From positions 83,930-147,929 of IMG/VR virus record IMGVR_UViG_3300042881_003883: 64,000 nucleotides of DNA; one strand, given 5' to 3'. The position numbers and the translations under genes are program-made. Source of the DNA: a virus (lineage: Duplodnaviria; Heunggongvirae; Uroviricota; Caudoviricetes). Shown in pieces: positions 2,452 to 61,724 of the stretch. Position 1 is the first letter of the stretch; each line of letters starts with the position of its first letter. The notes beneath the pieces were generated by a model. That model did no database searches and had not been told where the DNA came from. It worked only from the letters and a program-made list of their open reading frames with translations.

Positions 2452-2463
2452 TAAATCAATTAA

Positions 2464-2497
2464 AGTTTGGAAAATCCAAACTTTTTTTGTATATTTG
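2464..2497 (+). promoter_or_regulatory. terminator hairpin (AGTTTGG-AAAAT-CCAAACT + T7) immediately followed by a TATATTTG -7 promoter box
   Basis: Perfect 7 bp stem, T-run, then TATATTTG at 2490-2497, 18 nt upstream of the ATG at 2516. Confidence 0.6.
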
Positions 2498-28340: not shown

Positions 28341-28422
28341 TTTTAAAAAAAGTTTGGTAAATTCAGATTTTTTTCGTATCTTTACATAAATAAACAATAT
28401 ATATAAATATAAAACACAAATT

Positions 28423-33217: not shown

Positions 33218-33900
33218 AAAAGTTTATTTTTATAACCATTTCCGTAGTATTACTACCAATATTTGGATATTCTCAAACCAAATTGGACTCACTTGATTTT
33301 GATAAGTACATACATTCAATTACAGGTAGGTTTTCAACTAAATACCATTCAACCATTGATACCACCAGAGGTGATGTATTAGTAAGGACTGTAGAGTATG
33401 ATACACATGATGAAGCGACTCTAATCTATACTCAGCAAGGTGAACTAATTGAGGGTAAGTACTATCCATATAGACAACGTATATACGCAATATACCAAAT
33501 TGATGATTATTACATTGGTTTAAACATATTCTCAATACCAAATGAAGTTGATTTTTGGAATGTACTAACTGATACCAAAGTTGCGTCTGGTAAGTTTAAT
33601 TTAGATGATATAACATTTAAAGTTGATACCAACAAACTAAAGGCACTTGCCATCTATGACCTACCATATAAAGTGGGGTGTGATATAAAGATATACAAAG
33701 ATAACTTAGGGGCATTTAGAGGTAGTACCAATGAATCGGATTGTAAAGGCTCATTTAAGGGAGCAACCTACACTACAACTGAGTTTGTAATATACCAACA
33801 CGAAGTTATTAGTTGGGAGAGGGGTTGGGATGATTCTGGAACTCAAATATGGGGGCCAAAAACAGGTCCATATATCTACTCAAAAGTTGCAAATCACTAA
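33214..33900 (+). CDS. secreted protein (signal peptide)
   Basis: N-terminus MKKFIFITISVVLLPIFGYSQ, a typical Bacteroidetes signal peptide. Confidence 0.55.
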   Translation: MKKFIFITISVVLLPIFGYSQTKLDSLDFDKYIHSITGRFSTKYHSTIDTTRGDVLVRTVEYDTHDEATLIYTQQGELIEGKYYPYRQRIYAIYQIDDYYIGLNIFSIPNEVDFWNVLTDTKVASGKFNLDDITFKVDTNKLKALAIYDLPYKVGCDIKIYKDNLGAFRGSTNESDCKGSFKGATYTTTEFVIYQHEVISWERGWDDSGTQIWGPKTGPYIYSKVANH

Positions 33901-33947
33901 TTTTTCAAATATCTTATATTTAAACCCATATAAATAAAAACATTATT

Positions 33948-34106: not shown

Positions 34107-34127
34107 GAAAATCGTAAGATTTTTAAG

Positions 34128-34204
34128 AAAACCCTTGTTTATATCAAATATTATTCGTATATTAGACAGGTAATTGAGAGAGTAATTAATCAAACCCCTA
34201 ATAT
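34128..34204 (+). promoter_or_regulatory. repeated promoter-leader cassette, copy B
   Basis: cTTGTTTATATCAaatATTATTCGTATATTAGACAGGTAATTGAGAGAGTAATTAATCAAACCCCTAAtat then ATG. Confidence 0.6.
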
Positions 34205-34345
34205 ATGAAACCAAAAAACACCCTTCCAACCCACAGACGATTGTTAATCGAGTCGATGGAACTACTTTTTAGTGGTAAAAAAACCAAAGCTAAAAAGACA
34301 CTAAAACAAGCCAAATTAGAGATTGATAAATTTTATCAAAAATAA
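34205..34345 (+). CDS. small basic hypothetical protein (46 aa)
   Basis: ORF immediately after cassette copy B; not in supplied track. Confidence 0.35.
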   Translation: MKPKNTLPTHRRLLIESMELLFSGKKTKAKKTLKQAKLEIDKFYQK

Positions 34346-34351
34346 CTTCAA

Positions 34352-34429
34352 TTTTATTTGGATATCTCAGGTATTTGTCGTATATTTGAGTATAAGATTA
34401 AGAGATAAATTAATTAAAACCCTAAAAAT
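34352..34429 (+). promoter_or_regulatory. repeated promoter-leader cassette, copy A
   Basis: ...TTCGTATATTTGAGTATAAGATTAAGAGATAAATTAATTAAAACCCTAAAAAT then ATG 34430. Confidence 0.6.
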
Positions 34430-36547: not shown

Positions 36548-36574
36548 TTCAAATTGTTAATAACTTTATTGAAA

Positions 36575-36669
36575 ATAATTAGAAAAAGGCTTGTTTATCT
36601 CAAGTCTTTTTTGTATATTTGAGTATAAGATTGATAGATAGATTAAATCACTTAAAAAACCCCTAAATT
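36575..36669 (+). promoter_or_regulatory. repeated promoter-leader cassette, copy C (with hairpin AGGCTTGTTTATCTCAAGTCT + T6)
   Basis: GAAAATAATTAGAAAAAGGCTTGTTTATCTCAAG...TATATTTGAGTATAAGATT...AAAAAACCCCTAAATT then ATG 36670. Confidence 0.6.
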
Positions 36670-36894: not shown

Positions 36895-36904
36895 AAAAAG
36901 CAAA

Positions 36905-36999
36905 AATAATTGGCAAAAAGCTTGTTTATATCAGAAATTGTTCGTATATTAGACAGGTAATTGAGAGAGTAATTAATTAAAACCCTAAAATAAATAAAA
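36905..36999 (+). promoter_or_regulatory. repeated promoter-leader cassette, copy D
   Basis: AAAATAATTGGCAAAAAGCTTGTTTATATCAGAAATTGTTCGTATATTAGACAGGTAATTGAGAGAGTAATTAATTAAAACCCTAAAAT. Confidence 0.6.
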
Positions 37000-39707: not shown

Positions 39708-39860
39708 AGACACCAAAGATTGGATGGAAAAGTTAGTAAAGAACTATCGAATTCCATTGGAAGAGGACAAATCCAAAAAACAAGAACCAAAGAAACTATT
39801 GAAAGAATCACAATTAAAAAAGATTTTGGAAAGAAATTAGGTTATTTGAATTATTTTTTG

Positions 39861-39868
39861 TATATTTG
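39861..39868 (+). promoter_or_regulatory. -7 promoter box TATATTTG
   Basis: TTATTTTTTGTATATTTG context shared with 2483-2497 and 19665-19681. Confidence 0.5.
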
Positions 39869-39914
39869 AAATATGAATTACTATAATATACAAGCATTCG
39901 TAAAAAAGATAAAG

Positions 39915-40825: not shown

Positions 40826-41101
40826 ATGGAAATGATTAAAAGCAGATACGGATTAGAGAGAGTTATCGAAAAATTAGATACCAATAGACTTAGGATTACT
40901 GGGGAATCTCAATTTCAAAGAACATCAACAAATGATTCCGGTGAAACGGTAATGTTTGACTTTGAAGGTGGACCGGTATTATCGGTAGGAGGAGTACTTA
41001 ATTTTCAAAAATCAAAATGGATTATAACATCAATCACACCAATTGATTCAAAGTACGAAGGATTGGTAGAATGCATTGTAGGGGTTAAATTATCTTATTA
41101 G
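40826..41101 (+). CDS. hypothetical small protein
   Basis: ORF. Confidence 0.4.
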   Translation: MEMIKSRYGLERVIEKLDTNRLRITGESQFQRTSTNDSGETVMFDFEGGPVLSVGGVLNFQKSKWIITSITPIDSKYEGLVECIVGVKLSY

Positions 41102-42094: not shown

Positions 42095-42865
42095 ATGTAC
42101 AAAGTAAGAGGATATCAAAAACCGGAGGATTCGTTCCACACTATTGGAGAGTGGGAACGTATCTCTAAGCGTTTTTTAGACCTACAAAAGGGTGGTTCCG
42201 ATACTAGGGGTGGGGTTTTACCTACGGACCCGAAGATGATGGAACTTATAGATACTTATTTTGGATATCAACTATGGGTTGAAACCGATTTGTATGGGGA
42301 TTTGACCAAGAAAAACGTTTTAGACTTTATTGAAGATTTTGTAAACCATAGGATATGGGGAATCAGAGATGAGTTTGGGGATTATATAAAGAACATAAAC
42401 AATGATAGGATTGCGTTCTTTAATAGTAGAGGAGCAATTGAACCTTATATTCTATTGGATAAATCGTTTACTAAGGATACTTATGGTAACGTAGGTTCTG
42501 AGGTGGTAACGTACCATTGGACATCTGAGGAGGGATTCAGAAACCTTGCAGATAGTATCCGAAGTGGGTATAGTTTTTCTATATCAACGTTTACTACCCA
42601 AGCAAAGGAGTTCTTTAGACCGGAGAGTAATATATTGGTAAAGATAAGAGGAGAGTTAGTAGCCGCATTTAAATCAGATGTAAAATCATTTGCAACTGAT
42701 AGAGGAAATCGGGCAGCTAACTTATTCCGTTTTTCATACCCGGATAATGAGAATAATCTATGTACGGATTTAGTGAATTGTACTGAGAACAAAACCTCAC
42801 TTTGGAACGAAATAATTGTAAAACCAATATCTATATTAGATTATAAGCAAATTAAAAAGTATTAA
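42095..42865 (+). CDS. hypothetical protein in GC-elevated island
   Basis: Local GC ~45-52% vs ~31% genome; AGG/GGG/CCG codons enriched. Confidence 0.5.
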   Translation: MYKVRGYQKPEDSFHTIGEWERISKRFLDLQKGGSDTRGGVLPTDPKMMELIDTYFGYQLWVETDLYGDLTKKNVLDFIEDFVNHRIWGIRDEFGDYIKNINNDRIAFFNSRGAIEPYILLDKSFTKDTYGNVGSEVVTYHWTSEEGFRNLADSIRSGYSFSISTFTTQAKEFFRPESNILVKIRGELVAAFKSDVKSFATDRGNRAANLFRFSYPDNENNLCTDLVNCTENKTSLWNEIIVKPISILDYKQIKKY

Positions 42866-42866
42866 T

Positions 42867-43280
42867 ATGATAAGTTTAAAAGAAATTATCTATGAAGTAC
42901 TAAATGAGGTTGTGATAAGTGTATCGGATTTAGATGATACATTAGAACAATATAGAAAAGATACCAATTGGACAGATTGGTATATGAGTGGAGGATGTTA
43001 TACATTTGCTGATGGTCTGAATAAGTATTTAGGAAATAGAGGTAAGTATGTAGCTATAATAGAACCGGAAACGAAAGCGATGGTTCACGTTTGTGTTTTG
43101 TATGGTGGGAAGTATTGTGATTATAACGGATGTAGAAGTAAAAACGATATACTATCCGATATCACTATAAATGGAACTCCGATATGGAAAACCATAAACC
43201 GGTCACAAATATCATCGGAACATAATTTTGATAATAGTGAAGTAACCTCAATAGTAAAGAATTTAAATAAAATAAGATAA
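42867..43280 (+). CDS. Cys-rich protein with N-terminal MISLKEIIYE motif (CTS-like family)
   Basis: First ~20 nt nearly identical to the start of the 43280 gene. Confidence 0.55.
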   Translation: MISLKEIIYEVLNEVVISVSDLDDTLEQYRKDTNWTDWYMSGGCYTFADGLNKYLGNRGKYVAIIEPETKAMVHVCVLYGGKYCDYNGCRSKNDILSDITINGTPIWKTINRSQISSEHNFDNSEVTSIVKNLNKIR

Positions 43281-44032
43281 TGATAAGTTTAAAGGAAATA
43301 ATTAAAGGGATTCTAAGTGAGGGTGTTGATGACCCGGGAATCTTAAAATGTGTATTTATGGCAGGAGGACCTGGAAGTGGGAAATCATTTACTGCTAAAG
43401 AGATATTTGGAGTGGGTAAATCTGCATTTTCATCGGTATCTGCTGGTGGATTGAAATTAGTAAATTCTGATACTGCATTTGAGAAGGGTCTTAAAGATAA
43501 TGGTATTGATATGAAGGAGTTGGGTAACATTGAAAAGAATGACCCGGAACTTTGGGATTTAATCACTAAGGGAGATAATTCAATTAGAGGAAAAGCAAAA
43601 GCGATTACCGATAAACAAAGAGCTTTTTATGAAGCTGGTAGATTGGGTATGATTATCGATGGAACCGGAGATGAGGTATCTAAGATTAAAAAGAAAATGG
43701 AACATGCTGAATCATTAGGATATGATTGTTCAATGGTGTTTGTAAATACATCATTGGAAGTAGCATTGGAAAGAAATAAAAACCGAGATAGAGTTCTATC
43801 GGATGAGTTGGTAACCAAAATTTGGAAAGATTGTCAAAATAACTTAGGAGCATTCCAAGGTATGTTTAGTGGTAACTTTGTAATTGTAGATAATACCGTT
43901 TACAAACCGGTAAATAGACCAGTACAACAAGCAGTAGATGCGTTCTTAAGAAAACCACTTTATAATCCAATTGGAAAAAAATGGGTAGCAACTGCTAGAA
44001 TATTAAAAAAATCTAATCTGATTAAGAAATGA
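43280..44032 (+). CDS. P-loop kinase (PNK/zeta-toxin/AAA_33-like) with N-terminal MISLKEIIKGILSE motif
   Basis: Walker A GGPGSGKS; IIDGTGDE...VFVNTSLEVALERNKNR resembles the PNK/zeta-type kinase core. Confidence 0.6.
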   Translation: MISLKEIIKGILSEGVDDPGILKCVFMAGGPGSGKSFTAKEIFGVGKSAFSSVSAGGLKLVNSDTAFEKGLKDNGIDMKELGNIEKNDPELWDLITKGDNSIRGKAKAITDKQRAFYEAGRLGMIIDGTGDEVSKIKKKMEHAESLGYDCSMVFVNTSLEVALERNKNRDRVLSDELVTKIWKDCQNNLGAFQGMFSGNFVIVDNTVYKPVNRPVQQAVDAFLRKPLYNPIGKKWVATARILKKSNLIKK

Positions 44033-45999: not shown

Positions 46000-46026
46000 T
46001 ATCACCTAATAAAAAATAATTAAAGA

Positions 46027-46062
46027 AAAGCTTGGATATACCAAGCTTTTTTTGTATCTTTG
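46027..46062 (+). promoter_or_regulatory. terminator hairpin (AAGCTTGG-ATATA-CCAAGCTT + T6) followed by -7 box TATCTTTG
   Basis: Perfect 8 bp palindromic stem containing HindIII-like AAGCTT; box at 46055-46062. Confidence 0.6.
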
Positions 46063-46081: not shown

Positions 46082-47407
46082 ATGTTTACACCCTTTTCAG
46101 TATTAGATACTAGAACAAAGGAATGGAAGCAAAGAAAGGAATATTGGATTACTAATTATGGTATCCAATCTGAATTAGGTAGAGAGGATACTCAATCCAA
46201 AACTATCTTTTGGGATACACCCAATTCAGTTTCCGTATTTGACCCAGTACTTTGTGAATTGATGTACGATTGGTTCTCACCCAAAGGTGGAATGGTATTA
46301 GACCCATTCGCTGGTGGTAGTGTGAGAGGTATCGTATGTGAAGAGATGAACCGAAGATACGTTGGAATTGATTTATCCAAATCACAAGTAAAAGCCAACA
46401 AAGAGCAATCAAAAAAACCCTTATGGATTAATGGTGATTCGAATGAGGAATTGGACAAGGTAGCCGATGAATCATTTGATTTTGTATTTACATGCCCACC
46501 TTACTACGATTTGGAGATTTATACTGATGATGTGAATGATATTTCCAATATGGATGTGGATTCATTTGATAAAGTATATGAATCAATACTCCTAAAATCA
46601 GTTCAAAAACTAAAAGATAACCGATTCTTTGGGATTGTAGTATCTGAAGTTAGAGAACCATCCGTAACTGGTAAGTATTCTAAAGGTAGATATAGAGGTT
46701 TGGTTCGTAAAACCATAGATATGTTGGAATCAGCTGGAATGGAATTCTATAATGATATGATTCTATTCAATTCTCAACACCAAGCTTCACGAGTTGGTAA
46801 AACTTACTTTGATAGAAATCGTAAAATACCATCAGTTCATCAAAACATTCTAATTTTTGTAAAAGGAAACCCTGATATCGCAACTATTGAGATTGAAGGT
46901 GGTGAACCTATGTGTAAAGTAGATGGGAAGGAATACCTATCATTTAGACATGCGGCAATTGATGTGGATGCAGATAAGTTAGTTGCATCTGAAGTAGAGA
47001 GAAGATGTAGAAGTACTAAATCATCTTACAAAGAGTGGCAAATCATTGGTGAAGAAACCAACCCACATATAAAATACGAAGTAGATGGAGTTCCGTTTGA
47101 GAACCCAAAACAAATAGCAGATTTAATTGGTGGAGATTTCACCGAACAAATTGCTAGAAATTATATTGAATCAAACAATCCCAAATATAGACATTGGAAA
47201 CGGGTGGATAGTAATGATATTACCTATGGTGAAATGATGGATATGTGGGATAATAATATTAGATTAGAAATACCAGTTATAAGTTGTGATGGAATTGAAT
47301 TCTATTCAATGGAAGATGCTGGTAACCATTTTGGTATCTCATCTGAAAGAGTAAGACAGAAACTAAAATCGGATAAACATTCCGATTGGATTTATTTAGA
47401 CAATTAA
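46082..47407 (+). CDS. DNA methyltransferase (beta-class N6A/N4C) with ~190 aa C-terminal extension
   Basis: Motif I DPFAGGSVRG precedes motif IV TCPPYY (beta permutation). Track start 46052 lies inside the promoter box; ATG at 46082 preferred. Confidence 0.75.
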   Translation: MFTPFSVLDTRTKEWKQRKEYWITNYGIQSELGREDTQSKTIFWDTPNSVSVFDPVLCELMYDWFSPKGGMVLDPFAGGSVRGIVCEEMNRRYVGIDLSKSQVKANKEQSKKPLWINGDSNEELDKVADESFDFVFTCPPYYDLEIYTDDVNDISNMDVDSFDKVYESILLKSVQKLKDNRFFGIVVSEVREPSVTGKYSKGRYRGLVRKTIDMLESAGMEFYNDMILFNSQHQASRVGKTYFDRNRKIPSVHQNILIFVKGNPDIATIEIEGGEPMCKVDGKEYLSFRHAAIDVDADKLVASEVERRCRSTKSSYKEWQIIGEETNPHIKYEVDGVPFENPKQIADLIGGDFTEQIARNYIESNNPKYRHWKRVDSNDITYGEMMDMWDNNIRLEIPVISCDGIEFYSMEDAGNHFGISSERVRQKLKSDKHSDWIYLDN

Positions 47408-48263: not shown

Positions 48264-48808
48264 GTAAAATAGTAAATCTATTTGGAGGACCTGGTATTGG
48301 GAAATCATCCATTGCCAATGGTCTTACATATAAGTTAAAAAAGAAACACATAAGTTGTGATAATCCATATGAGTTTCCAAAAGTATTGGCATGGGATGAG
48401 AATCATTCTGCTATCAAAGACCAATTGTATGTACTTGCAAACCAACATAGGGGAATTGTTAAGAGTTATGGGAAGGTTGACTATATTATATTGGATTCAC
48501 CAATTGTATTATCATTGGTATATAAATCAGTATATAAAGGTACTGAGTACCCAGCAACGCTGTATGGTGATTCATTTGATAAAATGGTGTTAGACATTCA
48601 TAATCAATATGATACGCTTAATATCGTTCTAAAACGTTCTGAGGGTGGGTATAATGAAAAGGAAAGGTACCAATCATTGAATGAATCCAAAATGCTGGAT
48701 TTGGAGATAGAAAATACCCTAATTAAACACCATATTCCATTTATTTATGTAGATGTTAACGATGATACTTTAAAAAACATACTAAAATATTTGGATATTC
48801 CAAATTAA
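48260..48808 (+). CDS. P-loop NTPase / nucleotide kinase-like
   Basis: Walker A GGPGIGKSS; ~180 aa, dNK/dNMP-kinase-like size. Confidence 0.55.
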   Translation: MSKIVNLFGGPGIGKSSIANGLTYKLKKKHISCDNPYEFPKVLAWDENHSAIKDQLYVLANQHRGIVKSYGKVDYIILDSPIVLSLVYKSVYKGTEYPATLYGDSFDKMVLDIHNQYDTLNIVLKRSEGGYNEKERYQSLNESKMLDLEIENTLIKHHIPFIYVDVNDDTLKNILKYLDIPN

Positions 48809-48813
48809 TTTCG

Positions 48814-48821
48814 TATATTTG
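48814..48821 (+). promoter_or_regulatory. -7 promoter box TATATTTG (AATTAATTTCGTATATTTG class)
   Basis: 30 nt upstream of ATG 48851. Confidence 0.55.
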
Positions 48822-48850
48822 ATTATTAATAACTTAAAACTCTAAAATAT

Positions 48851-49414: not shown

Positions 49415-49825
49415 ATGAAAAAAAGAATTTACTTAGATGATGTAAGAACTCCAGTAGATAAAGAATCTTGGGTAGTTGTTAGAAACTATGAACAATTTAT
49501 TGATACAGTTACTTACATTGGATTGGAAAATATTGACTTGATTTCATTGGACCACGATTTAGGAGATACTGCAATGGCAGAGTGGCATAAGAATGTATAT
49601 CACAATTATGAATTAAACTATGATAATATTAAGGAAAAGACTGGAATGGATTGCACTAAATGGTTGGTTAATCAATGGTTGGACGGACATGCTGTTGTTG
49701 ATGTTGTAATACATTCAGCAAACGCAATTGGTTCAGCAAATATGATGGGATACATTAACAATTATAGACACGTTAGTAGATTACCACAAAATTGTGTAAG
49801 AGTACAAATAGAACATACAGTATAA
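49415..49825 (+). CDS. hypothetical protein with YLDDVRTP...SLDHDLG motif
   Basis: ORF; conserved-looking acidic motif, family not recognised. Confidence 0.5.
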   Translation: MKKRIYLDDVRTPVDKESWVVVRNYEQFIDTVTYIGLENIDLISLDHDLGDTAMAEWHKNVYHNYELNYDNIKEKTGMDCTKWLVNQWLDGHAVVDVVIHSANAIGSANMMGYINNYRHVSRLPQNCVRVQIEHTV

Positions 49826-53789: not shown

Positions 53790-54302
53790 ATGTTACCTTT
53801 AAAAGAAGCAACTGCTGAAAAGCACAAATTGGCTGAAAGAATGCCATTCAACGGATTGATGTTTAGTGGTAGATTAACCGCATCTCAATATGGTGAGTAT
53901 CTTAAATCACAATTAGCAATCTTTTCAACATTGGAAAACAACTTTGAATTTCCAAATGAGGGATTAAAGAGAGTATCAGCTGTAAGTGAGGATTTGGGAT
54001 ACTTAGGTGTATCAGATGTTTCACCTGATTCAGCAACCGAATCATATATTCAATATCTAAAAGGATTAACACAAGATGAGGCAAATGCTCATATCTATCT
54101 TAACTACTTAGCAATTATGTTTGGTGGACAGATGATGAAAGAGAAAACACCCGGTCAAGGTAAAATGTATGATTTTGAAAATATGATGGAATGTGCTGGT
54201 TCAATCAGAGCTATTCAAAAAGATGAATGGGCAGATGAGGTAAATGCAGGATTTGATTTTATGATTGAAATCTTTAAAGAATTAGAAAAATGTACGATTT
54301 AG
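53790..54302 (+). CDS. heme oxygenase (compact HO family)
   Basis: LKEATAEKHKLAE vs HO-1 LKEATKEVHTQAE (proximal His); HIYLNYLAIMFGGQMMKEK vs HAYTRYLGDLSGGQVLKKI; IEIFKELEK vs IQLFEELQ. Confidence 0.8.
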   Translation: MLPLKEATAEKHKLAERMPFNGLMFSGRLTASQYGEYLKSQLAIFSTLENNFEFPNEGLKRVSAVSEDLGYLGVSDVSPDSATESYIQYLKGLTQDEANAHIYLNYLAIMFGGQMMKEKTPGQGKMYDFENMMECAGSIRAIQKDEWADEVNAGFDFMIEIFKELEKCTI

Positions 54303-54931
54303 TAGAACGTATAACATATCATAGTGAGAAGTTTAAAAACCTCATCGAATCAATCGATGGGGTTAAAGAACTCCATACTGATGATTATGGTTGGGAGAAC
54401 TACCGATACGAATCACCAATTTTCAGATTAGCTCACGTAGAGAGATACTTTGTAGGTTCACTTGCAGTTTGTCACATCACTTGTTTCCCACATAAGAACT
54501 CAAAAGCACCAATCTTTGGATTTGATGTAGTTGGTGGTACTAATAGTGGAAAGATAAGTGGAGCATTTATAGATTGTTCCCCAGTCCTTTATGATGAAGA
54601 TTGGCATAATACTGAATGGAACACCGATAGAAAGTTACCTTATTGGGCATCGGTATTTTCGGAACAATTCATAGCAGTAAGACCTACTGAAGATGAATAT
54701 GAGAAAATATTTGAAACTGCTTGGGGGGTATTTCAACGATATATTGAACAATTAAGAAGTGAAGTAGATATTACATCCGATTCAAATGAGTTGAGAATTA
54801 TTATAGAAAACCAAAACATATATTGTAGACACCAAGCTGATAATCCTCGTACATTTGGTGCATTGAAAACGGAAATTGGAGAAGAGAGGGCTACCTACTT
54901 TATGCAAAAAGTACTATTTCCAGAAATATAA
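54290..54931 (+). CDS. ferredoxin-dependent bilin reductase (FDBR; PcyA/PebS/PcyX-like)
   Basis: FRLAHVERYFVGSLAVCHITCFPHKNSKAPIFGFDVVGG matches FDBR core RRAHVE...VLHCV.FP....P.FG.D.VGG; 12 nt overlap with the heme oxygenase gene. Confidence 0.7.
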   Translation: MYDLVERITYHSEKFKNLIESIDGVKELHTDDYGWENYRYESPIFRLAHVERYFVGSLAVCHITCFPHKNSKAPIFGFDVVGGTNSGKISGAFIDCSPVLYDEDWHNTEWNTDRKLPYWASVFSEQFIAVRPTEDEYEKIFETAWGVFQRYIEQLRSEVDITSDSNELRIIIENQNIYCRHQADNPRTFGALKTEIGEERATYFMQKVLFPEI

Positions 54932-57514: not shown

Positions 57515-57545
57515 CCCCAACCCCGTAAGGTTGGGGATTTTTTGT
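57515..57545 (+). terminator. rho-independent terminator after groEL
   Basis: CCCCAACC-CCGTAA-GGTTGGGG hairpin plus ATTTTTTGTG. Confidence 0.75.
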
Positions 57546-57577
57546 GCCATTGATTATCAACACGTTATAAAAAAGTT

Positions 57578-57673
57578 GAAAAATAATTGGCAAAAGGCTT
57601 GTTTATATCAGGAATTATTCGTAGGTTTACATAGTAATAAGAGATGATAATTAAACCCCTAAAATTAAAAATT
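57578..57673 (+). promoter_or_regulatory. repeated promoter-leader cassette, copy E
   Basis: GAAAAATAATTGGCAAAAGGCTTGTTTATATCAGGAATTATTCGTAGGTTTACATAGTAATAAGAGATGATAATTAAACCCCTAAAATTAAAAATT. Confidence 0.6.
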
Positions 57674-58015
57674 ATGAACAAAGAGAAATTTAACGAAGTA
57701 TTTGAGAAAAAAGTTGGCTATGATTCAGAGAACAAAAAGTTCTTAATTAGGGTATATCCATCCCTTATCAAAGTAATTAATAATAATCCAAAACCAAAGT
57801 GGGTGGATGTTATTGAGGATATGTTAGGATATAAGAGTAGCGGATATTATTCATCAATCCGTAGATGTTTAAAAGAGATTGATGTATGTACCTATGATAA
57901 AAGTGTAGGTCATTTTGTTAAAGGTTCAAATTGGGATAGGTTCGTATCTAATGAAAATTGGAATTGGTTTATTTGTAAAACAGGTAGTTGTGAACGTTCA
58001 TTTGTTAAAAAATAA
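57674..58015 (+). CDS. hypothetical Cys-containing protein
   Basis: Track start 57644 is an ATG created by a 2-nt insertion inside the conserved leader; ATG 57674 matches the leader-ATG spacing of other copies. Confidence 0.5.
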   Translation: MNKEKFNEVFEKKVGYDSENKKFLIRVYPSLIKVINNNPKPKWVDVIEDMLGYKSSGYYSSIRRCLKEIDVCTYDKSVGHFVKGSNWDRFVSNENWNWFICKTGSCERSFVKK

Positions 58016-58023
58016 TTACGAAA

Positions 58024-58098
58024 TGTCTTGTTTATATCAGGAATTATTCGTATGTTTACAGAGTAATAAGAGATAATTAAACCCCTAAAACTAATAAA
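58024..58098 (+). promoter_or_regulatory. repeated promoter-leader cassette, copy F
   Basis: GTCTTGTTTATATCAGGAATTATTCGTATGTTTACAGAGTAATAAGAGATAATTAAACCCCTAAAACTAATAAA. Confidence 0.6.
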
Positions 58099-58407
58099 AT
58101 GAAAACAAAATTCGAAATCTGGTTAGAAAATGTTAATACTGAGTTAGAAACTGAGTGGAACAATACCTTTACTCACAAAGCTTGGACTCCAATATTACCC
58201 AATAAAGGTAGTAAATTTATTAAAATGATGCATGGAACCACTGTTTGGGGGTTCGTATCAATGGTTGATGGTGAACACTTAGGAGCTCCAATCAAAAAAG
58301 GTGATTTAATGAAACCTGCTAGTTGGAGAGCCGCTGCTAAACATAGTAGAGGTAATATCTTTGATGGAACTGCTAAATATGGTATGTACGGACCTAAATA
58401 CCTATAA
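58099..58407 (+). CDS. hypothetical protein
   Basis: ORF after cassette F. Confidence 0.5.
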   Translation: MKTKFEIWLENVNTELETEWNNTFTHKAWTPILPNKGSKFIKMMHGTTVWGFVSMVDGEHLGAPIKKGDLMKPASWRAAAKHSRGNIFDGTAKYGMYGPKYL

Positions 58408-58408
58408 T

Positions 58409-58801
58409 ATGAACCAATTCCCTAACAATTTTCAAAAAGTTGTTAATTTTCTTAAAAACCAATCAATATCAGTTGAACTATCAAATAGTACCTGTTACAT
58501 TGGTAATTCTGATAATGCTAAAATTTACATTCATAGGAGATATAATCTAAATAAAAACGGATTGTATGCACTTTTACATGAAGCTGGTCACTTTTTACAA
58601 CCACATGGTAAGTATAGTGCTAACCACTATAAAAATGTTGATGATTGTGAACAACCTACCAAATTCAATATGTATCAGTTTATGAATGAAGTTGATGCAT
58701 GGGATAGGGGGTTAAATCTGGCTAATGAATTGGGTATTTTCATTAACAAAGAAGAATGGGGTAAGGAAAGGGAAATTGCATTGTTAACCTATTACGTTTA
58801 A
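58409..58801 (+). CDS. small HExxH zinc-metallopeptidase-like protein
   Basis: LLHEAGHFLQPHG (HExxH). Track start 58361 (TTG) overlaps the upstream gene; ATG 58409 is preferred. Confidence 0.5.
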   Translation: MNQFPNNFQKVVNFLKNQSISVELSNSTCYIGNSDNAKIYIHRRYNLNKNGLYALLHEAGHFLQPHGKYSANHYKNVDDCEQPTKFNMYQFMNEVDAWDRGLNLANELGIFINKEEWGKEREIALLTYYV

Positions 58802-58805
58802 ATCT

Positions 58806-59306
58806 ATGAGAGAGTATATTTTAAGTTATTTACCACAGGTTGTTGAGGAAGCTAATAACAGATTCAAAATTTTCAAATCTGTTGTGGATTATGGTTCCCT
58901 ATCTACTAAGTTGAAATCGGAACTGATATCCAATATGTTAGAAGCATCATTTTCTAAGGTGGTTCCTGAGGTAATATCCCCATTTTCCGATGGTGAACCT
59001 GACCTTTATGTGAAAGGTACCGCATTGGAGATTAAAACCGCTAAAACTACCCATATTTGGAGGGGTGGTGAGTTTTCTAAGAGGGAATCGGACTACCTAT
59101 TGGTATCCTACGATGATTCTGGGGCTGACCTTAAGTGGTTCTTTATACACACCTATCTAATGGAATCCGATTGGAAATCATCAGGAAGCGATTCCTATTA
59201 CGCTACAACGATAGATTTAAACTATGTGATGGAAACCAAAGAATATCAGATTCTTATGGGTAAAATTCAGAAAAAAAGGGTTAAAAATCACTTAATTTGT
59301 TGTTAA
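58806..59306 (+). CDS. hypothetical protein
   Basis: ORF. Confidence 0.5.
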   Translation: MREYILSYLPQVVEEANNRFKIFKSVVDYGSLSTKLKSELISNMLEASFSKVVPEVISPFSDGEPDLYVKGTALEIKTAKTTHIWRGGEFSKRESDYLLVSYDDSGADLKWFFIHTYLMESDWKSSGSDSYYATTIDLNYVMETKEYQILMGKIQKKRVKNHLICC

Positions 59307-59310
59307 AAAT

Positions 59311-59358
59311 TTGGAAATACCAAATATTATTCGTATATTAGACATATAATTAAGAGAT
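59311..59358 (+). promoter_or_regulatory. repeated promoter-leader cassette, truncated copy G
   Basis: CAAATATTATTCGTATATTAGACATATAATTAAGAGAT then ATG 59359. Confidence 0.5.
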
Positions 59359-59772
59359 ATGATATTAACTAAGGAGTTGGAAAAGTTTATTAATAGTAAG
59401 TTAAAAAAGGTTGCTAAACACTATGGATATAGTAATTTTCAATCAACTTTACCTTATTTGGAAATTATAAAATCGGATGAAATTTGGGCCGATGATGATT
59501 TGGAATTTTATGGTTCAACTACAAAGTCAAAATCTGAAGAGGATAAAGAATTGAAAGGTTGGTATGAGAGTATGGATAATACACTTACTATTGTAATTGA
59601 TAATGTAAAAAATAGGAGAGATTTGGTAAGGACAATCATTCACGAATATCAACATTATTTACAATCACCCTGTTGGATGAGTAGGTATTATAATATGGGT
59701 TATGAATATTCAAACCACCCATATGAAGTTGCAGCATACGCTGAGGAAAATAACTATAAAATGTTTATGTAA
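59359..59772 (+). CDS. small HExxH metallopeptidase-like protein (SprT/WLM-like)
   Basis: IIHEYQHYLQS (HExxH) and downstream conserved aromatic-rich segment. Confidence 0.5.
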   Translation: MILTKELEKFINSKLKKVAKHYGYSNFQSTLPYLEIIKSDEIWADDDLEFYGSTTKSKSEEDKELKGWYESMDNTLTIVIDNVKNRRDLVRTIIHEYQHYLQSPCWMSRYYNMGYEYSNHPYEVAAYAEENNYKMFM

Positions 59773-59773
59773 T

Positions 59774-59968
59774 ATGATACAAAAATTAATACAAAAGATT
59801 GAATCAAAGATTCTAACAAAGTTATTCATGCGTTGGGTGGATAAAGAATGGGATTTGGAATTATTGCAAATGACCGGAGGTATGATTTCAGCTAGAGAAA
59901 CTGAAATTAAATCATTAATTGACATGGCCACTCGTAAAGAGGTTTATGGATTTAAAAGATACGATTAA
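59774..59968 (+). CDS. hypothetical small protein
   Basis: ATG 2 nt after the upstream stop; track ORF 59702 overlaps the upstream gene. Confidence 0.45.
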   Translation: MIQKLIQKIESKILTKLFMRWVDKEWDLELLQMTGGMISARETEIKSLIDMATRKEVYGFKRYD

Positions 59969-60177
59969 TGTTTTACAATAGACAATTTATCCATATGGGT
60001 AATGAGATGTTTGTTGTAAAACGAACATTTAAAGGAGAAAAGTTTGAGAAGGTAATGCAGAAATTCACATCAAAAGAAATATGTGAAGCTTACCATTGTG
60101 AAAAAATACTAAAAGGTAAGGATGGGCTGTTTTATTTATGTGATAAAGTAGATGATGCCCAAGTTATTAACAAATAA
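59968..60177 (+). CDS. hypothetical small protein
   Basis: ORF. Confidence 0.45.
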   Translation: MFYNRQFIHMGNEMFVVKRTFKGEKFEKVMQKFTSKEICEAYHCEKILKGKDGLFYLCDKVDDAQVINK

Positions 60178-60195
60178 ATGTTGATAACTTTTTTG

Positions 60196-60288
60196 AAAAT
60201 AATTGAAAAAAGGCTTGTAGGTCTCAATTATTTTACTTATATTTGGTTATAAGATTAAGAGATAATTAAACCCCTAAAATTGAAAAAT
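60196..60288 (+). promoter_or_regulatory. repeated promoter-leader cassette, copy H
   Basis: GAAAATAATTGAAAAAAGGCTTGTAGGTCTCAATTATTTTACTTATATTTGGTTATAAGATTAAGAGATAATTAAACCCCTAAAATTGAAAAAT. Confidence 0.6.
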
Positions 60289-60576
60289 ATGAAAAGTAAA
60301 GTAATCACATTAAGTACGGAACCATTAGAATCAACTGTTCGTTATAAGAATTGTGTAATAGTTCCTGCTGGAAATGAGAAGTTTCCATCATTAGTTGAAA
60401 TTGAAAAAGCACCAGTTCGATTAGGTGTTAAAGGTAAAAAGTTCATTAACGCTATGAAGGCTCAATTAACCATTGATGCTATCGGAGCTGAGTTGATGAT
60501 TGGTGGTGGAGTTAAGAAAGTTAAAGAGGAGTTAGATAGTATTGGATTCATAATGGCGCAAGATGCAGCTTTTTAA
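60289..60576 (+). CDS. hypothetical protein
   Basis: Track start 60280 is a TTG inside the leader; ATG 60289 preferred. Confidence 0.5.
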   Translation: MKSKVITLSTEPLESTVRYKNCVIVPAGNEKFPSLVEIEKAPVRLGVKGKKFINAMKAQLTIDAIGAELMIGGGVKKVKEELDSIGFIMAQDAAF

Positions 60577-60907
60577 TCCCGAAAACGAACTAACCCAAAC
60601 CCAACTTGATGAGTTGGCTAAGGAAAACTTCGATTCCTTTTTACAATATTTGGATGAGAAGGCAGCCTATTTAAAACAATTCACTAAACCATTAGGTCAA
60701 TATCACACAAAGAACTTTGCCTCTTTATCCAAAGGTGGTGAATTAACTGATAAGGAATTGAAGAGAGCTAAAGAAATTGGAAAAGAAGGTGATGATGAGA
60801 TAGCTCGTAGGATAGCTGAAGCAGCTGAGAAATTAGGAGATGACCCTAAGTATAGGGATGAAGGTATTAAAAACTTAAAAACCAACCGCAGACAGTGGTT
60901 CGATTAA
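60563..60907 (+). CDS. hypothetical protein
   Basis: ORF. Confidence 0.5.
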   Translation: MQLFNPENELTQTQLDELAKENFDSFLQYLDEKAAYLKQFTKPLGQYHTKNFASLSKGGELTDKELKRAKEIGKEGDDEIARRIAEAAEKLGDDPKYRDEGIKNLKTNRRQWFD

Positions 60908-60908
60908 T

Positions 60909-61097
60909 ATGAGTATGACTTGGCAATATAGAGAAATGGGAAGTAGGAATAAAAAGACTGGAAAGTTATCCTACTATAATGTTACAGTAACCGATTGGAA
61001 AATTACCAATTGTGAATGTTCAGCTCGTTCATTCAATAGATACACACCATGTAAACATATGAAATCAATACATCAGAAATTAGGACACTCCTTATAA
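60909..61097 (+). CDS. SWIM-type zinc-finger small protein
   Basis: CECSARSFNRYTPCKHM (CxCxnCxH). Confidence 0.5.
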   Translation: MSMTWQYREMGSRNKKTGKLSYYNVTVTDWKITNCECSARSFNRYTPCKHMKSIHQKLGHSL

Positions 61098-61107
61098 TAA
61101 AATTTAA

Positions 61108-61335
61108 ATGAAAGCAAAATTACAATTCAATTTACCCGATGATGAACATGAATTCCAAATGGCAATTCAGGGGGCATCAATGCACTCAGTACTTTGGGAA
61201 ATGGACCAATGGTTACGAGCACAATACAAATATATGTCAGATGCTGAATATAGTGAGGATGCTTACAAAGCATATGAAACGGCTAGAAGTAAACTCAACG
61301 AATTTATGAACGATGAAAATATAAGTTTCGATTAA
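61108..61335 (+). CDS. hypothetical small protein
   Basis: ORF. Confidence 0.45.
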   Translation: MKAKLQFNLPDDEHEFQMAIQGASMHSVLWEMDQWLRAQYKYMSDAEYSEDAYKAYETARSKLNEFMNDENISFD

Positions 61336-61724
61336 TGGAAATGCAACTAATATCAACCCATCCAATTAAGAAAGCTGATTTGGGGTTTCATGCAAATCTA
61401 TTTGGTGGCAAACTTTTAGCATGGATTGATGCTGCTGGTGCCGCTATGGCAATGGAAGTATGTGATACACCCAGAATAGTGACTGTAAAAATTGATGAGT
61501 GTTTATTTAAAAGACCCGCTAAAGAAGGGCAACTTCTAAAAATATATGGAAGAGTAAAGGAGATAGGGAATACTTCTTTAACTCTAATGTTAGAAGCTAG
61601 AGCACATAATGTATATTCGGGTCAGCAAACCATAATCCTATCAACTAACATTAAATTTGTAAGGATTGATGAAAGCAACGAACCCATTCCTATTTCAGAT
61701 AGAGTTAAATTAAAATATAAATAA
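61335..61724 (+). CDS. acyl-CoA thioesterase (hotdog fold, YciA/4HBT-like)
   Basis: HANLFGGKLLAWIDAAGAAMAMEV, typical hotdog thioesterase N-terminal region. Confidence 0.7.
   Translation: MEMQLISTHPIKKADLGFHANLFGGKLLAWIDAAGAAMAMEVCDTPRIVTVKIDECLFKRPAKEGQLLKIYGRVKEIGNTSLTLMLEARAHNVYSGQQTIILSTNIKFVRIDESNEPIPISDRVKLKYK

What the first reader, a model, noticed from the sequence alone, without database searches (positions are those of the whole stretch)
57578..60288. Second array of the same promoter-leader cassette (copies E-H) driving small unknown genes, including two HExxH mini-proteins
Copies precede the ATGs at 57674, 58099, 59359 (truncated copy) and 60289. The -7 region varies (TAGGTTTA, TATGTTTA, TATATTAG, TATATTTG) while the leader AATTAAACCCCTAAAA is nearly invariant. 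Selection therefore seems to act on the transcribed leader rather than on the promoter box. In copy E a 2-nt insertion creates an upstream ATG inside the leader, so the annotated ORF start at 57644 is probably artefactual. The genes served are mostly small ORFs of unknown function, like accessory cassettes. The eight copies together define a phage-specific regulon linking the CobT/CobS-like module at 34-38 kb with this block.
Basis: seen in the sequence. Interest (0 to 1): 0.7.

Follow-up and report, generated by a model that had tools for sequence, protein, structure and literature searches.

The report
Shuffling promoter-leader cassettes of a jumbo phage
The four repeats are real copies of a roughly 100-base "promoter plus mRNA leader" cassette that this large uncultured phage, probably of Bacteroidota, places in front of small swappable accessory genes. 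The cassette's conserved C-rich leader motif sits where related phages of other hosts carry a ribosome-binding (Shine-Dalgarno) site.

Summary
Copies E, F and H are full cassettes and G is a short-leader version. A profile built only from other contigs finds seven full copies in the window (E 1e-13 to 7e-10), all on the + strand.

Each cassette has these parts in order:
- an A/T-rich upstream stretch;
- a Bacteroidota-type -33 TTG, a 20-nt spacer and a -7 TAnnTTnn box;
- an unstructured leader with two linear modules, GTAAT..GAGAG just after the promoter and AATTAAA(A/C)CCCTAAAA 6-14 nt before the ATG.

Related uncultured 200-290 kb phages keep the cassette at orthologous genes (CobT, CobS). 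Against an 84-90% identical marine relative, leader D is 47/47 identical while its promoter spacer is 74% identical. ORFs A and C between cassettes are replaced by unrelated ORFs there.

In relatives whose hosts use Shine-Dalgarno sites, a leader with the same layout and alignable promoter and module 1 carries AAGGAG roughly where this phage has the C-tract.

Best reading: mobile promoter-plus-leader cassettes like the PeSL elements of T4-type phages, with a start-associated leader motif acting on the mRNA. The motif's mechanism is inferred, not shown.

"Leader rather than promoter" is overstated, and the insertion in E is 3 nt, not 2. This is a new variant of a known kind, of moderate interest.

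The parts
57515..57545 (+). Intrinsic terminator of the GroES/GroEL operon, just upstream of cassette E
   Evidence: 8-9 bp G+C-rich stem followed by a T-run. It isolates the E-H block from upstream transcription.
57576..57673 (+). Cassette E. A/T-rich upstream part; -33 TTG 57599-57601; -7 box TAGGTTTA 57622-57629; leader 57630-57673 with module 1 GTAATAAGAGAT 57634-57645, in-frame upstream ATG 57644-57646, and C-tract core 57649-57664.
   Evidence: nhmmer E = 1.5e-11; leader MFE -0.24 kcal/mol, z = +0.95.
57674..58015 (+). Gene E, 113 aa (123 aa if started at 57644). No known family and no homologue in the fetched relatives.
58003..58098 (+). Cassette F. -33 TTG 58028-58030; -7 box TATGTTTA 58051-58058; leader 58059-58098; module 1 58063-58074; C-tract core 58075-58090.
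   Evidence: nhmmer E = 6.2e-11; leader MFE 0 kcal/mol.
58099..59306 (+). Operon served by F: gene F 58099-58407 (102 aa, weak DUF7717 / phrog_5014), HExxH protein 58409-58801 (130 aa), ORF 58806-59306 (166 aa).
   Evidence: F has a homologue behind a cassette in L008. The HExxH protein has a homologue behind a short-leader cassette next to CobS in L047 and L048.
59305..59358 (+). Cassette G, the short-leader form. -33 TTG 59311-59313; -7 box TATATTAG 59334-59341; leader 59342-59358 holds module 1 only (ATAATTAAGAGAT) and has no C-tract.
   Evidence: nhmmer E = 1.8e-5 over the promoter and module 1. The same short leader precedes the G homologue in L125, so the form is conserved and not a recent accident.
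59359..60177 (+). Operon served by G: HExxH protein 59359-59772 (137 aa), ORFs 59774-59968 and 59968-60177.
   Evidence: Homologues lie in the same order in L125.
60189..60288 (+). Cassette H. -33 TTG 60215-60217; -7 box TATATTTG 60238-60245; leader 60246-60288; module 1 60249-60263; C-tract core 60264-60279.
   Evidence: nhmmer E = 8.2e-12; leader MFE 0 kcal/mol.
60289..61724 (+). Operon served by H: gene H 60289-60576 (95 aa), then 60563-60907, 60909-61097, 61108-61335 and a 4HBT thioesterase 61335-61724.
34114..34204 (+). Cassette A (ATG 34205, 46-aa ORF). Same sub-lineage as D and G.
   Evidence: ORF A is replaced by an unrelated ORF in L229.
34334..34429 (+). Cassette B, driving the CobT-like vWA gene 34430-36547.
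   Evidence: In L229 the module 1 part is of the other sub-lineage, while module 2 through the ATG is 21/21 identical.
36566..36669 (+). Cassette C (ATG 36670, 74-aa ORF), with an A-run/stem/T-run hairpin 36582-36612 lying across the -33 box and spacer.
   Evidence: (hairpin -11.7 kcal/mol, z = -4.4). ORF C is replaced in L229.
36901..36999 (+). Cassette D, driving the CobS-like AAA+ gene 37000-38208.
   Evidence: Leader 47/47 and -7 box 8/8 identical to L229.
48772..48850 (+). Degenerate ninth copy (leader AACTTAAAACTCTAAAATAT; ATG 48851).
   Evidence: (E = 4.5e-5).
33887..33947 (+). Weak tenth copy (TATCTTAT, then ATTTAAACCCATATAAA; ATG 33948).
   Evidence: The 47 nt upstream of the ATG are 95.7% identical to L229.

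Best explanation
E-H are four members of a family of roughly 100-nt regulatory cassettes. The window holds 7 full copies, 1 short-leader copy and 2 degenerate copies.

The window comes from a ~270-kb uncultured jumbo phage. Its promoters and its lack of Shine-Dalgarno (SD) sites indicate a Bacteroidota host.

Each cassette is a host sigma-A-type promoter followed by a short, G-poor, unstructured 5' leader:
- Promoter: A/T-rich upstream region, -33 TTG, 20-nt spacer, -7 TAnnTTnn.
- Module 1: GTAAT(N)GAGAG-like, directly after the transcription start region.
- Module 2: a start-proximal C-tract, UUAAA(A/C)CCCUAAAA, ending 6-14 nt before the AUG. Module 2 is missing in copy G.

The cassettes start transcription of small operons of accessory genes. 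Because they are long conserved repeats in one orientation, they also serve as homology patches. Recombination between them swaps the ORFs in between, in the manner of the PeSL cassettes of T4-type phages.

The C-tract most likely acts in the mRNA as part of the translation-initiation region. It would mark this subset of promoter-proximal cistrons either for a trans-acting factor or for efficient SD-independent ribosome loading.

Shown: the promoter consensus, cassette homology and conservation, cassette-bounded ORF replacement, lack of RNA structure, and the SD-like position of the motif. Inferred: that the promoters fire early from host RNA polymerase, and that the C-tract works at the RNA or translation level.
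For: 1. The promoter matches the published Bacteroidetes -33/-7 consensus TTTG/TAnnTTTG (PMC6847099). Only 6% of window genes have an SD-like sequence. The best bacterial GroEL match is a flavobacterium at 64%. An isolated Flavobacterium phage has the same type of promoter with a hairpin.
2. A profile built from other contigs recovers all copies, on the + strand only.
3. ACCCC, CCCCT and AACCCC are the most enriched k-mers in the 35 nt upstream of genes with an upstream gap of at least 50 nt. They occur in 32 of 908 such genes and in 0 of 1171 genes inside operons.
4. The motif is kept before orthologous CobT, small-ORF and CobS genes in relatives, while the sequence around it changes and hairpins are inserted upstream of it. 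The distance from motif to ATG has sd 5.0; the distance from -7 box to motif has sd 9.5.
5. Against L229, leader D is 47/47 identical and module 2 of B is 21/21 identical. The D spacer is 74% identical and coding DNA is 83-92.5% identical.
6. In SD-using relatives (45% of genes with an SD) the leader has the same layout: a sigma-70-like TTGACT-N17 promoter, the same ATGAGAG module, and AAGGAG near the ATG, where Bacteroidota-type relatives have AAACCC(C/T). About half of the C-tracts end 3-8 nt from the ATG, close to the SD peak at 6-8 nt.
7. Shuffling is visible. ORFs A and C are replaced in L229, with homology breaking inside the cassettes. The CobT leader is a mosaic of two cassette sub-lineages. 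E, F and the two ORFs after F are absent from L125, which has other ORFs behind cassettes. The homologue of the 58409-58801 HExxH gene sits behind a cassette next to CobS in L047. Metagenome copies share one leader and gene but have different -33/spacer halves.
8. The window leaders fold no better than shuffles and there is no Rfam match.
Against: - No expression data exist, so transcription start sites, timing and use of the leader in mRNA are inferred.
- The C-tract is not required for translation in this phage. Eight promoters of the same scaffold, and copy G, do without it.
- No trans-acting factor was identified.
- In E, F, H and D the C-tract ends 13-14 nt from the ATG, farther than an SD would be.
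- All genes are on one strand, so strand specificity cannot separate an RNA site from a DNA site.
- Leaders without the motif are also highly conserved against L229. Part of the conservation may therefore be a general constraint on leaders, or gene conversion.
- PeSL-like terminator hairpins are strong only in copy C and three other promoters. They are weak in E, G and H.
- In the joint alignment of CobS leaders the 3' half is mostly gaps and no column is conserved there, so the match between C-tract and SD is one of approximate position, not of aligned residues.
Confidence: 0.6

Rival explanations
1. The C-tract is a DNA operator. A phage or host DNA-binding protein binds the asymmetric site downstream of the promoter and blocks or modulates transcription, like the stoperators of Cluster A mycobacteriophages. 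This would give the cassette genes a common temporal switch.
For: The motif is asymmetric, has one orientation, and is always downstream of a promoter. Its distance from the promoter is flexible, as a roadblock would allow. It defines a subset of promoters.
Against: Its position tracks the ATG more closely than the promoter (sd 5.0 against 9.5). Hairpin insertions fall between the promoter and the motif, not between the motif and the ATG. It occupies roughly the place an SD holds in relatives' leaders of the same layout. No repressor candidate was seen in the proteins scanned.
Confidence: 0.15
2. The leader motif has no function of its own. It is carried along because whole cassettes are copied and homogenised by recombination (concerted evolution), and the promoter is the only functional part.
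For: Three sub-lineages are spread over both arrays, and the CobT leader is a mosaic, which shows frequent exchange. Leaders without the motif are also conserved.
Against: The C-tract persists at orthologous CobT and CobS genes in relatives down to 71% CobS identity, where the rest of the leader is no longer alignable. CCCC is rare in this genome, which is 13% C. The enrichment is specific to promoter-proximal start sites: 32 of 908 against 0 of 1171.
Confidence: 0.1
3. The motif is, or overlaps, a second promoter read by a phage-modified or phage-encoded transcription machinery (middle or late class). The genes would then be transcribed twice, with a very short leader in the second mode.
For: Many phages place short conserved motifs just upstream of genes as late promoters. 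The sequence after the C-tract is TAAAAT-like. This rests on general knowledge and was not tested here.
Against: The motif was never found before a gene without the host-type promoter 16-45 nt upstream. It is absent inside operons. No sigma factor or RNA polymerase gene is present among the window proteins scanned.
Confidence: 0.07
4. The leader is a structured RNA element, such as a riboswitch, attenuator, or nut/put-like antitermination site.
For: Some relatives carry a 5-9 bp G+C-rich hairpin with compensatory changes between the two linear modules. This arrangement of a linear box, a hairpin and a second linear box recalls lambda nut.
Against: The window copies have no hairpin. Their MFE is 0 to -4.1 kcal/mol with z = -0.5 to +1.3. 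There is no Rfam hit even at E up to 1. Seven or more copies each sit directly before an ORF, and there are no terminators inside the block to read through.
Confidence: 0.03

Closest known systems
PeSL (promoter-early stem-loop) mobile regulatory cassettes of T4-type phages RB49/phi1 (Arbiol et al. 2010, PMC2839356)
   Same: Both are roughly 100-bp repeated units with an A/T-rich upstream part, a consensus host promoter and the start region of the next gene. Both are concentrated before small orphan ORFs in hyperplastic regions. In both, ORF insertions, deletions and replacements between close relatives are bounded by the cassettes. Some units carry a stem-loop between or over the promoter boxes: copy C and the promoters at 2467, 28354 and 46032.
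   Different: They are analogous, not homologous. Here the promoter is the Bacteroidota -33/-7 type and not sigma-70. Most copies of this finding (E, G, H) lack a convincing stem-loop. The conserved part extends through a leader with two linear modules, and there is a C-tract in place of an SD. Mini-circles were not tested.
Start-Associated Sequences (SAS/ESAS) of Cluster K mycobacteriophages (Pope et al. 2011, PMC3203893)
   Same: Both are asymmetric motifs of about 13-16 nt, in one orientation, a few nucleotides upstream of the start codons of a subset of non-structural genes. Both are conserved across related phages even before non-homologous genes. The function is unknown and is suspected to lie in translation initiation.
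   Different: SAS contains the SD core AGGAG and lies 3-7 bp from the start. Here the motif is C-rich, cannot pair with the anti-SD, lies 6-14 nt from the start in the window, and is always coupled to a promoter.
Stoperators of Cluster A mycobacteriophages (cited in PMC3203893)
   Same: Many asymmetric sites of similar length, oriented with transcription, in short intergenic regions.
   Different: Stoperators are bound by the repressor of temperate phages and are not tied to start codons or promoters. No repressor is known here, and the motif's position tracks the ATG.
T4 RegA translational operators and other phage post-transcriptional controls (review PMC3014915, found in the literature search but not read; the description rests on my own knowledge)
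   Same: A linear, unstructured, A/U-rich site in the initiation region of several early mRNAs, which would allow joint translational control.
   Different: RegA sites overlap the AUG and have a loose consensus. No RegA-like protein was identified here.
Bacteroidetes primary promoter and SD-less, A-rich initiation regions (Baez et al. 2019, PMC6847099)
   Same: The -33 TTG / -7 TAnnTTTG promoter; A-rich, unstructured leaders without an SD; A at position -3 in most copies.
   Different: Host initiation regions are not reported to carry a conserved C-tract. Copy E also has an extra AUG in the leader, which that paper reports to be under-represented around Bacteroidetes start codons.

Membership tests
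PeSL-type mobile regulatory cassette | Consensus promoter of the host primary sigma factor, with an A/T-rich upstream region | tested here: met
   TTG-N20-TAnnTTnn with AAAATAATT upstream in all 8 copies. It matches the Bacteroidetes consensus (PMC6847099) and not sigma-70: sigma-70-like sites are not above chance.
PeSL-type mobile regulatory cassette | Adjacent stable stem-loop that can terminate upstream transcription | tested here: inconclusive
   The hairpin is strong in C (-11.7 kcal/mol, z = -4.4) and in promoters 2467, 28354 and 46032. F is borderline (-7.1, z = -1.95). E, G and H are weak, at -2.3 to -4.2.
PeSL-type mobile regulatory cassette | Preferentially upstream of small orphan ORFs in variable regions | tested here: met
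   E, the 58806-59306 ORF and ORF C have no homologues in about 130 related loci, and most served genes have no Pfam or PHROG function. CobT and CobS are exceptions, being conserved genes.
PeSL-type mobile regulatory cassette | Replacements and indels between close relatives are bounded by cassettes | tested here: met
   This is shown in the window versus L229 for ORFs A and C and for the CobT leader mosaic. It is shown less directly for E-H by comparison with L125, L008 and L047.
PeSL-type mobile regulatory cassette | Formation of excised mini-circles during infection | not testable with these tools
   This needs inverse PCR or long reads from infected cells.
Start-associated sequence (SAS-like) | Conserved asymmetric motif in one orientation immediately upstream of start codons of a subset of genes | tested here: met
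   The C-tract ends 6-14 nt before the ATG in the window and 1-20 nt in most relatives. It occurs on the + strand only and only at some genes.
Start-associated sequence (SAS-like) | The motif includes the Shine-Dalgarno core and can pair with the 16S rRNA 3' end | tested here: not met
   The motif is C-rich and has no GGAG. Only 5-6% of genes in this lineage have SD-like sequences.
Stoperator-like DNA operator | Bound by a phage repressor on double-stranded DNA; sites also occur away from promoters and start codons | tested here: inconclusive
   No motif was found away from a promoter-ATG context. Binding cannot be tested here.
Known structured RNA family (Rfam) | Match to a covariance model, or a stable conserved fold | tested here: not met
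   No Rfam match at gathering score or at E up to 1. The leaders fold no better than shuffles.
Lambda nut / HK022 put antitermination site | Promoter-proximal transcribed box plus hairpin that lets RNA polymerase read through downstream terminators | tested here: not met
   The window copies have no hairpin. There are no terminators within the E-H block. The copy number is much higher than is usual for nut sites.

The most novel reading that the evidence does not exclude
In phages of Bacteroidota, whose ribosomes do not use Shine-Dalgarno pairing, the C-tract UUAAA(A/C)CCCUAAAA may be a phage-specific substitute for the SD. It would be a start-site signal read by the ribosome or by a phage-supplied factor, giving a chosen set of early mRNAs privileged or switchable translation. 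Possible readers are ribosomal protein bS1, the bS21/bS18/bS6 pocket that normally holds the C-rich anti-SD tail, or a phage-encoded factor. The basis is that, in a cassette that is otherwise of the same layout and conserved across phages of different host phyla, the C-tract sits near the start codon in the place an SD holds in the relatives.
Probability: 0.15. Interest if true: 0.8.

Novelty: new variant of a known kind. Interest (0 to 1): 0.5.

Why it matters
Repeated promoter cassettes that drive and shuffle accessory genes are known from T4-type coliphages. Finding the same logic in an abundant, uncultured ~270-kb phage lineage of Bacteroidota suggests it is a general way for large phages to build and rebuild accessory-gene regions. 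Exact proteins of this phage occur in more than 200 blocks of the public assembly collection.

The more interesting part is the leader. The same cassette architecture appears in relatives that infect SD-using hosts and in relatives that infect SD-less hosts. The promoter boxes and the element near the start codon differ between the two groups to match the host.

This gives a concrete, mutable candidate for asking how start sites are chosen, and possibly taken over by phages, in a phylum that initiates translation without SD pairing. It also gives a sequence signature for annotating transcription units and true start codons in these metagenomic phages.

Tried and rejected
- RNA structure. All eight window leaders fold no better than shuffles. 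Rfam finds nothing at gathering score or at E up to 1. There are no tRNA or tmRNA genes. A structured RNA is rejected for the window copies; hairpins exist only in some relatives.
- An antisense partner for the leader. The only candidate is the + strand at 41076-41091, with 2 mismatches in 16. It lies inside a coding region and is a single hit at chance level. It was not pursued.
- A generic ribosome-binding motif. Rejected because the motif is absent from genes inside operons, 0 of 1171, and from 8 other promoters.
- Cultured relatives. DNA and CobS-protein searches of GenBank phages gave only distant hits, and the cassette itself gave no hit. Flavobacterium phage immuto has similar hairpin promoters but no C-tract leaders in the 25 kb examined.
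- Function of the served genes. Pfam, PHROGs and PDB sequence searches gave nothing reliable for E, the two HExxH proteins, the 58806-59306 ORF or H. The two HExxH proteins are not related to each other. A single-sequence AlphaFold model of the 137-aa protein was poor (pLDDT 57.5) and Foldseek gave no match at E of 0.001 or better. "Metallopeptidase" therefore remains a guess from the motif alone.
- Host inference from GroEL. The top hit is a flavobacterium at 64%, but other phyla follow closely. This is only weak support beside the promoter type and the lack of SD sites.
- Strain-level rearrangements of the E-H block. Contigs that carry exactly these proteins all have the same gene order, and a 96% identical strain fragment (L251) is collinear. 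Shuffling within E-H is seen only at greater distance (L125, L008, L047).
- Pairing of the C-tract with 16S rRNA outside the anti-SD. Not tested, because no host rRNA was at hand and short matches would not be decisive.

Full report
OBSERVATION.
- E: -33 TTG at 57599, -7 box TAGGTTTA at 57622-57629, ATG at 57674.
- F: TTG at 58028, TATGTTTA at 58051-58058, ATG at 58099.
- G: TTG at 59311, TATATTAG at 59334-59341, ATG at 59359.
- H: TTG at 60215, TATATTTG at 60238-60245, ATG at 60289.

AATTAAACCCCTAAAA is exact in E, F and H and absent from G. With up to 3 mismatches the window has 13 matches against 2.9 expected, and none of 100 shuffles reaches 13.

As an independent test I built an nhmmer profile from 95 distinct cassettes of other contigs, leaving out fragments identical to the window. 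It finds D, A, H, E, F, C and B over its full length at E = 1.6e-13 to 7e-10. G scores 1.8e-5 and a degenerate ninth copy at 48772-48848 scores 4.5e-5. Eight further promoters match only the promoter part. Nothing is found on the minus strand.

One detail is wrong in the finding: E differs from F and H by a 3-nt insertion (AAGAGATGATAATT against AAGAGATAATT), not 2 nt. Both HExxH motifs exist, but the two proteins are unrelated beyond that motif.

ANATOMY. Each cassette reads, from 5' to 3':
- an A/T-rich stretch (GAAAATAATT...AAAAGGC);
- TTG, exactly 20 nt of spacer, and TAnnTTnn;
- 17-48 nt of leader, then the ATG.

The leader has two linear modules. Module 1 (GTAATTGAGAGAG, GTAATAAGAGAT or ATAAGATTAAGAGAT) begins 3-5 nt after the -7 box. 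Module 2 is the C-tract core AATTAAA(A/C)CCCTAAAA. The C-run ends 6-7 nt before the ATG in A, B and C, and 13-14 nt before it in D, E, F and H. G has module 1 only, with the ATG directly after it.

By the sequence around the -7 box there are three sub-lineages: A/D/G, B/C/H and E/F. The first two each have members in both arrays; E/F is confined to the E-H array.

Between sub-lineages the identities are: TTG 100%, spacer 69%, -7 box 73%, leader core 84%. The chance level is 29%.

WHAT GENOME THIS IS.
- All called genes are on the + strand and G+C is 32%.
- The window is about 47.8-111.8 kb of a 270,754-bp metagenome contig. The exact proteins recur in more than 200 blocks of the public collection.
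- It is a non-structural region. It holds a clamp loader, an exonuclease, glycosyltransferases, a CobT-like vWA gene, a CobS-like AAA+ gene, a DNA ligase, thymidylate synthase, heme oxygenase, a bilin reductase and GroES/GroEL.
- The promoter matches the published Bacteroidetes -33/-7 consensus (PMC6847099). Sigma-70-like sites are not above chance.
- Only 6% of genes have an SD-like sequence.
- The best bacterial GroEL match is a flavobacterium at 64%.
- No cultured close relative exists in GenBank phages.

RELATIVES. Three searches brought in related sequence. A pattern scan of viral contigs found the full cassette in two other phage contigs. CobS and GroEL protein searches brought in 86 related loci from uncultured phages of up to 290 kb. 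A metagenome pattern scan returned 23 matches that carry a promoter; six of the loci are fragments 96-100% identical to the window, and the rest are distinct cassettes from freshwater and marine samples. Five results follow.

1. ACCCC, CCCCT and AACCCC are the most enriched words in the 35 nt before genes with an upstream gap of at least 50 nt. They occur in 32 of 908 such genes and in 0 of 1171 genes inside operons.

2. CobT, the small ORF after it and CobS keep the promoter, module 1 and an AAACC(C/T)-type tract in relatives down to 71% CobS identity, although the rest of the leader is no longer alignable.
   - The motif stays near the ATG (sd 5.0 nt), while its distance from the -7 box varies more (sd 9.5 nt).
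   - Part of that variation arises because about a dozen relatives carry a 5-9 bp G+C-rich hairpin between the modules. The stems differ and pair through compensatory changes (UGGGGA/UCCCCA, UGGGAG/CUCCCA, AGUGGG/CCCACU, GUGAG/CUCAC), and one has a G.U pair.

3. The marine relative L229 is 84-90% identical over about 12.9 kb.
   - Against it, leader D is 47/47 and its -7 box 8/8 identical. Module 2 of B through the ATG is 21/21 identical.
   - For comparison, the D spacer is 74% identical, CobS coding DNA 92.5% and CobT 91%.
   - Leaders of two promoters without the C-tract are just as conserved (17/17 and 36/38). Leader conservation is therefore general and not special to the motif.

4. Shuffling is visible.
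   - ORFs A and C are replaced by unrelated small ORFs in L229. Homology ends inside one cassette and resumes at the next.
   - The CobT leader in L229 has module 1 of the other sub-lineage but the same module 2, so there was a crossover between the modules.
   - In L125, E, F, the first HExxH gene and the 58806-59306 ORF are missing. Other ORFs sit behind cassettes there. G and its short leader, the two ORFs after it, H and its followers are kept.
   - F has a homologue behind a cassette in L008.
   - The first HExxH gene has a homologue behind a short-leader cassette right after CobS in L047 and L048.
   - Several metagenome copies share one leader and gene but differ in the -33/spacer half.

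5. The more distant relatives (L070-L124) use SD sites in 45% of genes, against 5-6% in the window and its close relatives.
   - Their CobS gene is preceded by a leader of the same layout. It has a sigma-70-like TTGACT-N17-TAnnnT promoter at the same place, the same TTCGTA and ATGAGAG(AG) elements, and AAGGAG near the ATG. In the joint alignment the promoter and module 1 align, but the 3' half of the leader is mostly gaps.
   - SD cores end 6-8 nt from the ATG. About half of the C-tracts end 3-8 nt away, and a second group ends 11-20 nt away.
   - The C-tract is thus roughly the positional counterpart of the SD in a cassette whose promoter boxes have also changed to suit the host.

STRUCTURE. 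The eight leaders have MFE of 0 to -4.1 kcal/mol and z-scores of -0.5 to +1.3. E, F and H fold worse than most or all shuffles. Rfam finds nothing. The leader is a G-poor single strand. This fits what is known of Bacteroidetes initiation regions, which are A-rich and unstructured (PMC6847099).

A different structure does exist at the DNA/RNA level in some promoters. An A-run, stem and T-run lies across the -33 box and spacer in copy C (-11.7 kcal/mol) and in the promoters at 2467, 28354 and 46032. It is a terminator and a promoter in one unit. It is weak in E, G and H. The block itself is insulated upstream by the GroEL terminator at 57515-57545 and has no internal terminators.

MECHANISM.

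Shown:
- The repeats are homologous host-type promoters with a conserved leader.
- They precede small operons of one gene (E), three genes (F), three genes (G) and five genes (H).
- Across relatives they mark the borders of ORF replacement.

Inferred:
- Host RNA polymerase fires them, probably early.
- Their length and single orientation make them substrates for homologous recombination that moves accessory ORFs, as shown experimentally for PeSLs (PMC2839356).
- The C-tract acts in the mRNA at the initiation region.

I favour the RNA-level reading for four reasons. The motif follows the ATG more than the promoter. Insertions fall upstream of it. It sits roughly in the SD slot of a leader that shares its layout. 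It lies in a deliberately unstructured stretch.

Whether it is an intrinsic enhancer or the site of a trans-acting factor cannot be decided here. Because eight sister promoters and copy G work without it, I lean to a discriminating signal for regulating a subset of genes rather than a requirement for translation.

The rivals are a DNA operator of the stoperator kind, pure hitch-hiking through concerted evolution, a second phage-specific promoter, and a structured RNA. They are listed separately with their evidence.

THE START OF GENE E. The ATG at 57644 is in frame and adds 10 residues. The JGI record calls the long form and an ENA record calls the short form. By analogy with F and H, 57674 is the cassette's usual start. 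But G, its homologue in L125, and the homologue of the first HExxH gene in L047 all start at an ATG placed exactly after module 1, where E's extra ATG lies. Baez et al. report that AUG is under-represented around Bacteroidetes start codons, which makes an extra AUG in the leader notable. Both starts may be used, so I cannot call 57644 an artefact.

COMPARISON AND NOVELTY. In function and architecture the closest known things are PeSL cassettes and, for the C-tract, the start-associated sequences of Cluster K mycobacteriophages (PMC3203893).

The cassettes meet the PeSL criteria of promoter, orphan-ORF association and cassette-bounded replacement. The stem-loop criterion is met only by some copies, and the cassettes are analogous, not homologous, to PeSLs. 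The C-tract meets the SAS criteria of asymmetry, orientation and proximity to the start, but fails the SD-core criterion.

I found no description of this cassette or motif in the literature searches or in cultured phages. It is therefore a new variant of a known kind.

Repeated promoter cassettes before accessory genes would not surprise a phage biologist. The host-matched swap of an SD for a conserved C-tract in an SD-less phylum is the part worth an experiment.

Noticed in passing
window 53790-54931: Heme oxygenase (53790-54302) and a ferredoxin-dependent bilin reductase (54290-54931) overlap as a pair. This pair is typical of cyanophages, but here it is in a phage with Bacteroidota-type promoters and no SD sites.
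   Followed up: no
window 2456-2497, 28342-28385, 36582-36612, 46020-46062: In these promoters an A-run, a 9-13 bp stem and a T-run lie across the -33 box and spacer (MFE -7.5 to -15.4 kcal/mol). This makes a terminator and a promoter in one unit. An isolated Flavobacterium phage, immuto, has the same arrangement.
   Followed up: partly
window 39826-39875: A strong promoter has its ATG (39873) only 4 nt after the -7 box, which would give a leaderless or nearly leaderless mRNA.
   Followed up: no
window 41076-41091, + strand: TTGTAGGGGTTAAATT is complementary to the leader core with 2 mismatches in 16. It lies at the end of ORF 40826-41101. It is a single hit at chance level but the only candidate anti-leader sequence.
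   Followed up: partly
window 46082-47407 and 27768-28340: A DNA methyltransferase is fused to an I-TevI-type DNA-binding domain, and there is a separate HNH endonuclease. These may be homing-type elements in the same plastic genome.
   Followed up: no
window 24694-27204: An 836-aa ORF with several internal DNA repeat families (21-nt tandem units at 25276-25359 and dispersed 40-47-nt repeats) has no PHROG match.
   Followed up: no
window 42856-42913 and 43269-43326: Two neighbouring genes (42867-43280 and 43280-44032) begin with the same roughly 58-nt sequence, 72% identical. This suggests a local duplication of a 5' end (family D18).
   Followed up: no
window 49415-49825: A small protein matches the cREC_REC (cyclic-phosphate processing receiver) domain at E = 1.4e-21.
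   Followed up: no
L070-L124 (for example L113 about 9920-9995, L096 about 9920-10000): Distant relatives of this phage lineage use SD sites and sigma-70-like TTGACT promoters, yet keep the TTCGTA and ATGAGAG elements of the cassette. One phage lineage therefore seems to span hosts with different transcription and translation signals.
   Followed up: partly
window 57644-57676; 13-14 nt C-tract-to-ATG spacers at 57660-57673, 58086-58098, 60275-60288 and 36986-36999: The spacing from the C-tract to the ATG falls into two groups about 7 nt apart: 6-7 nt in A, B and C, and 13-14 nt in D, E, F and H. The longer spacers look like two (T)AAAA(A)TT-like units in tandem.
   Followed up: no
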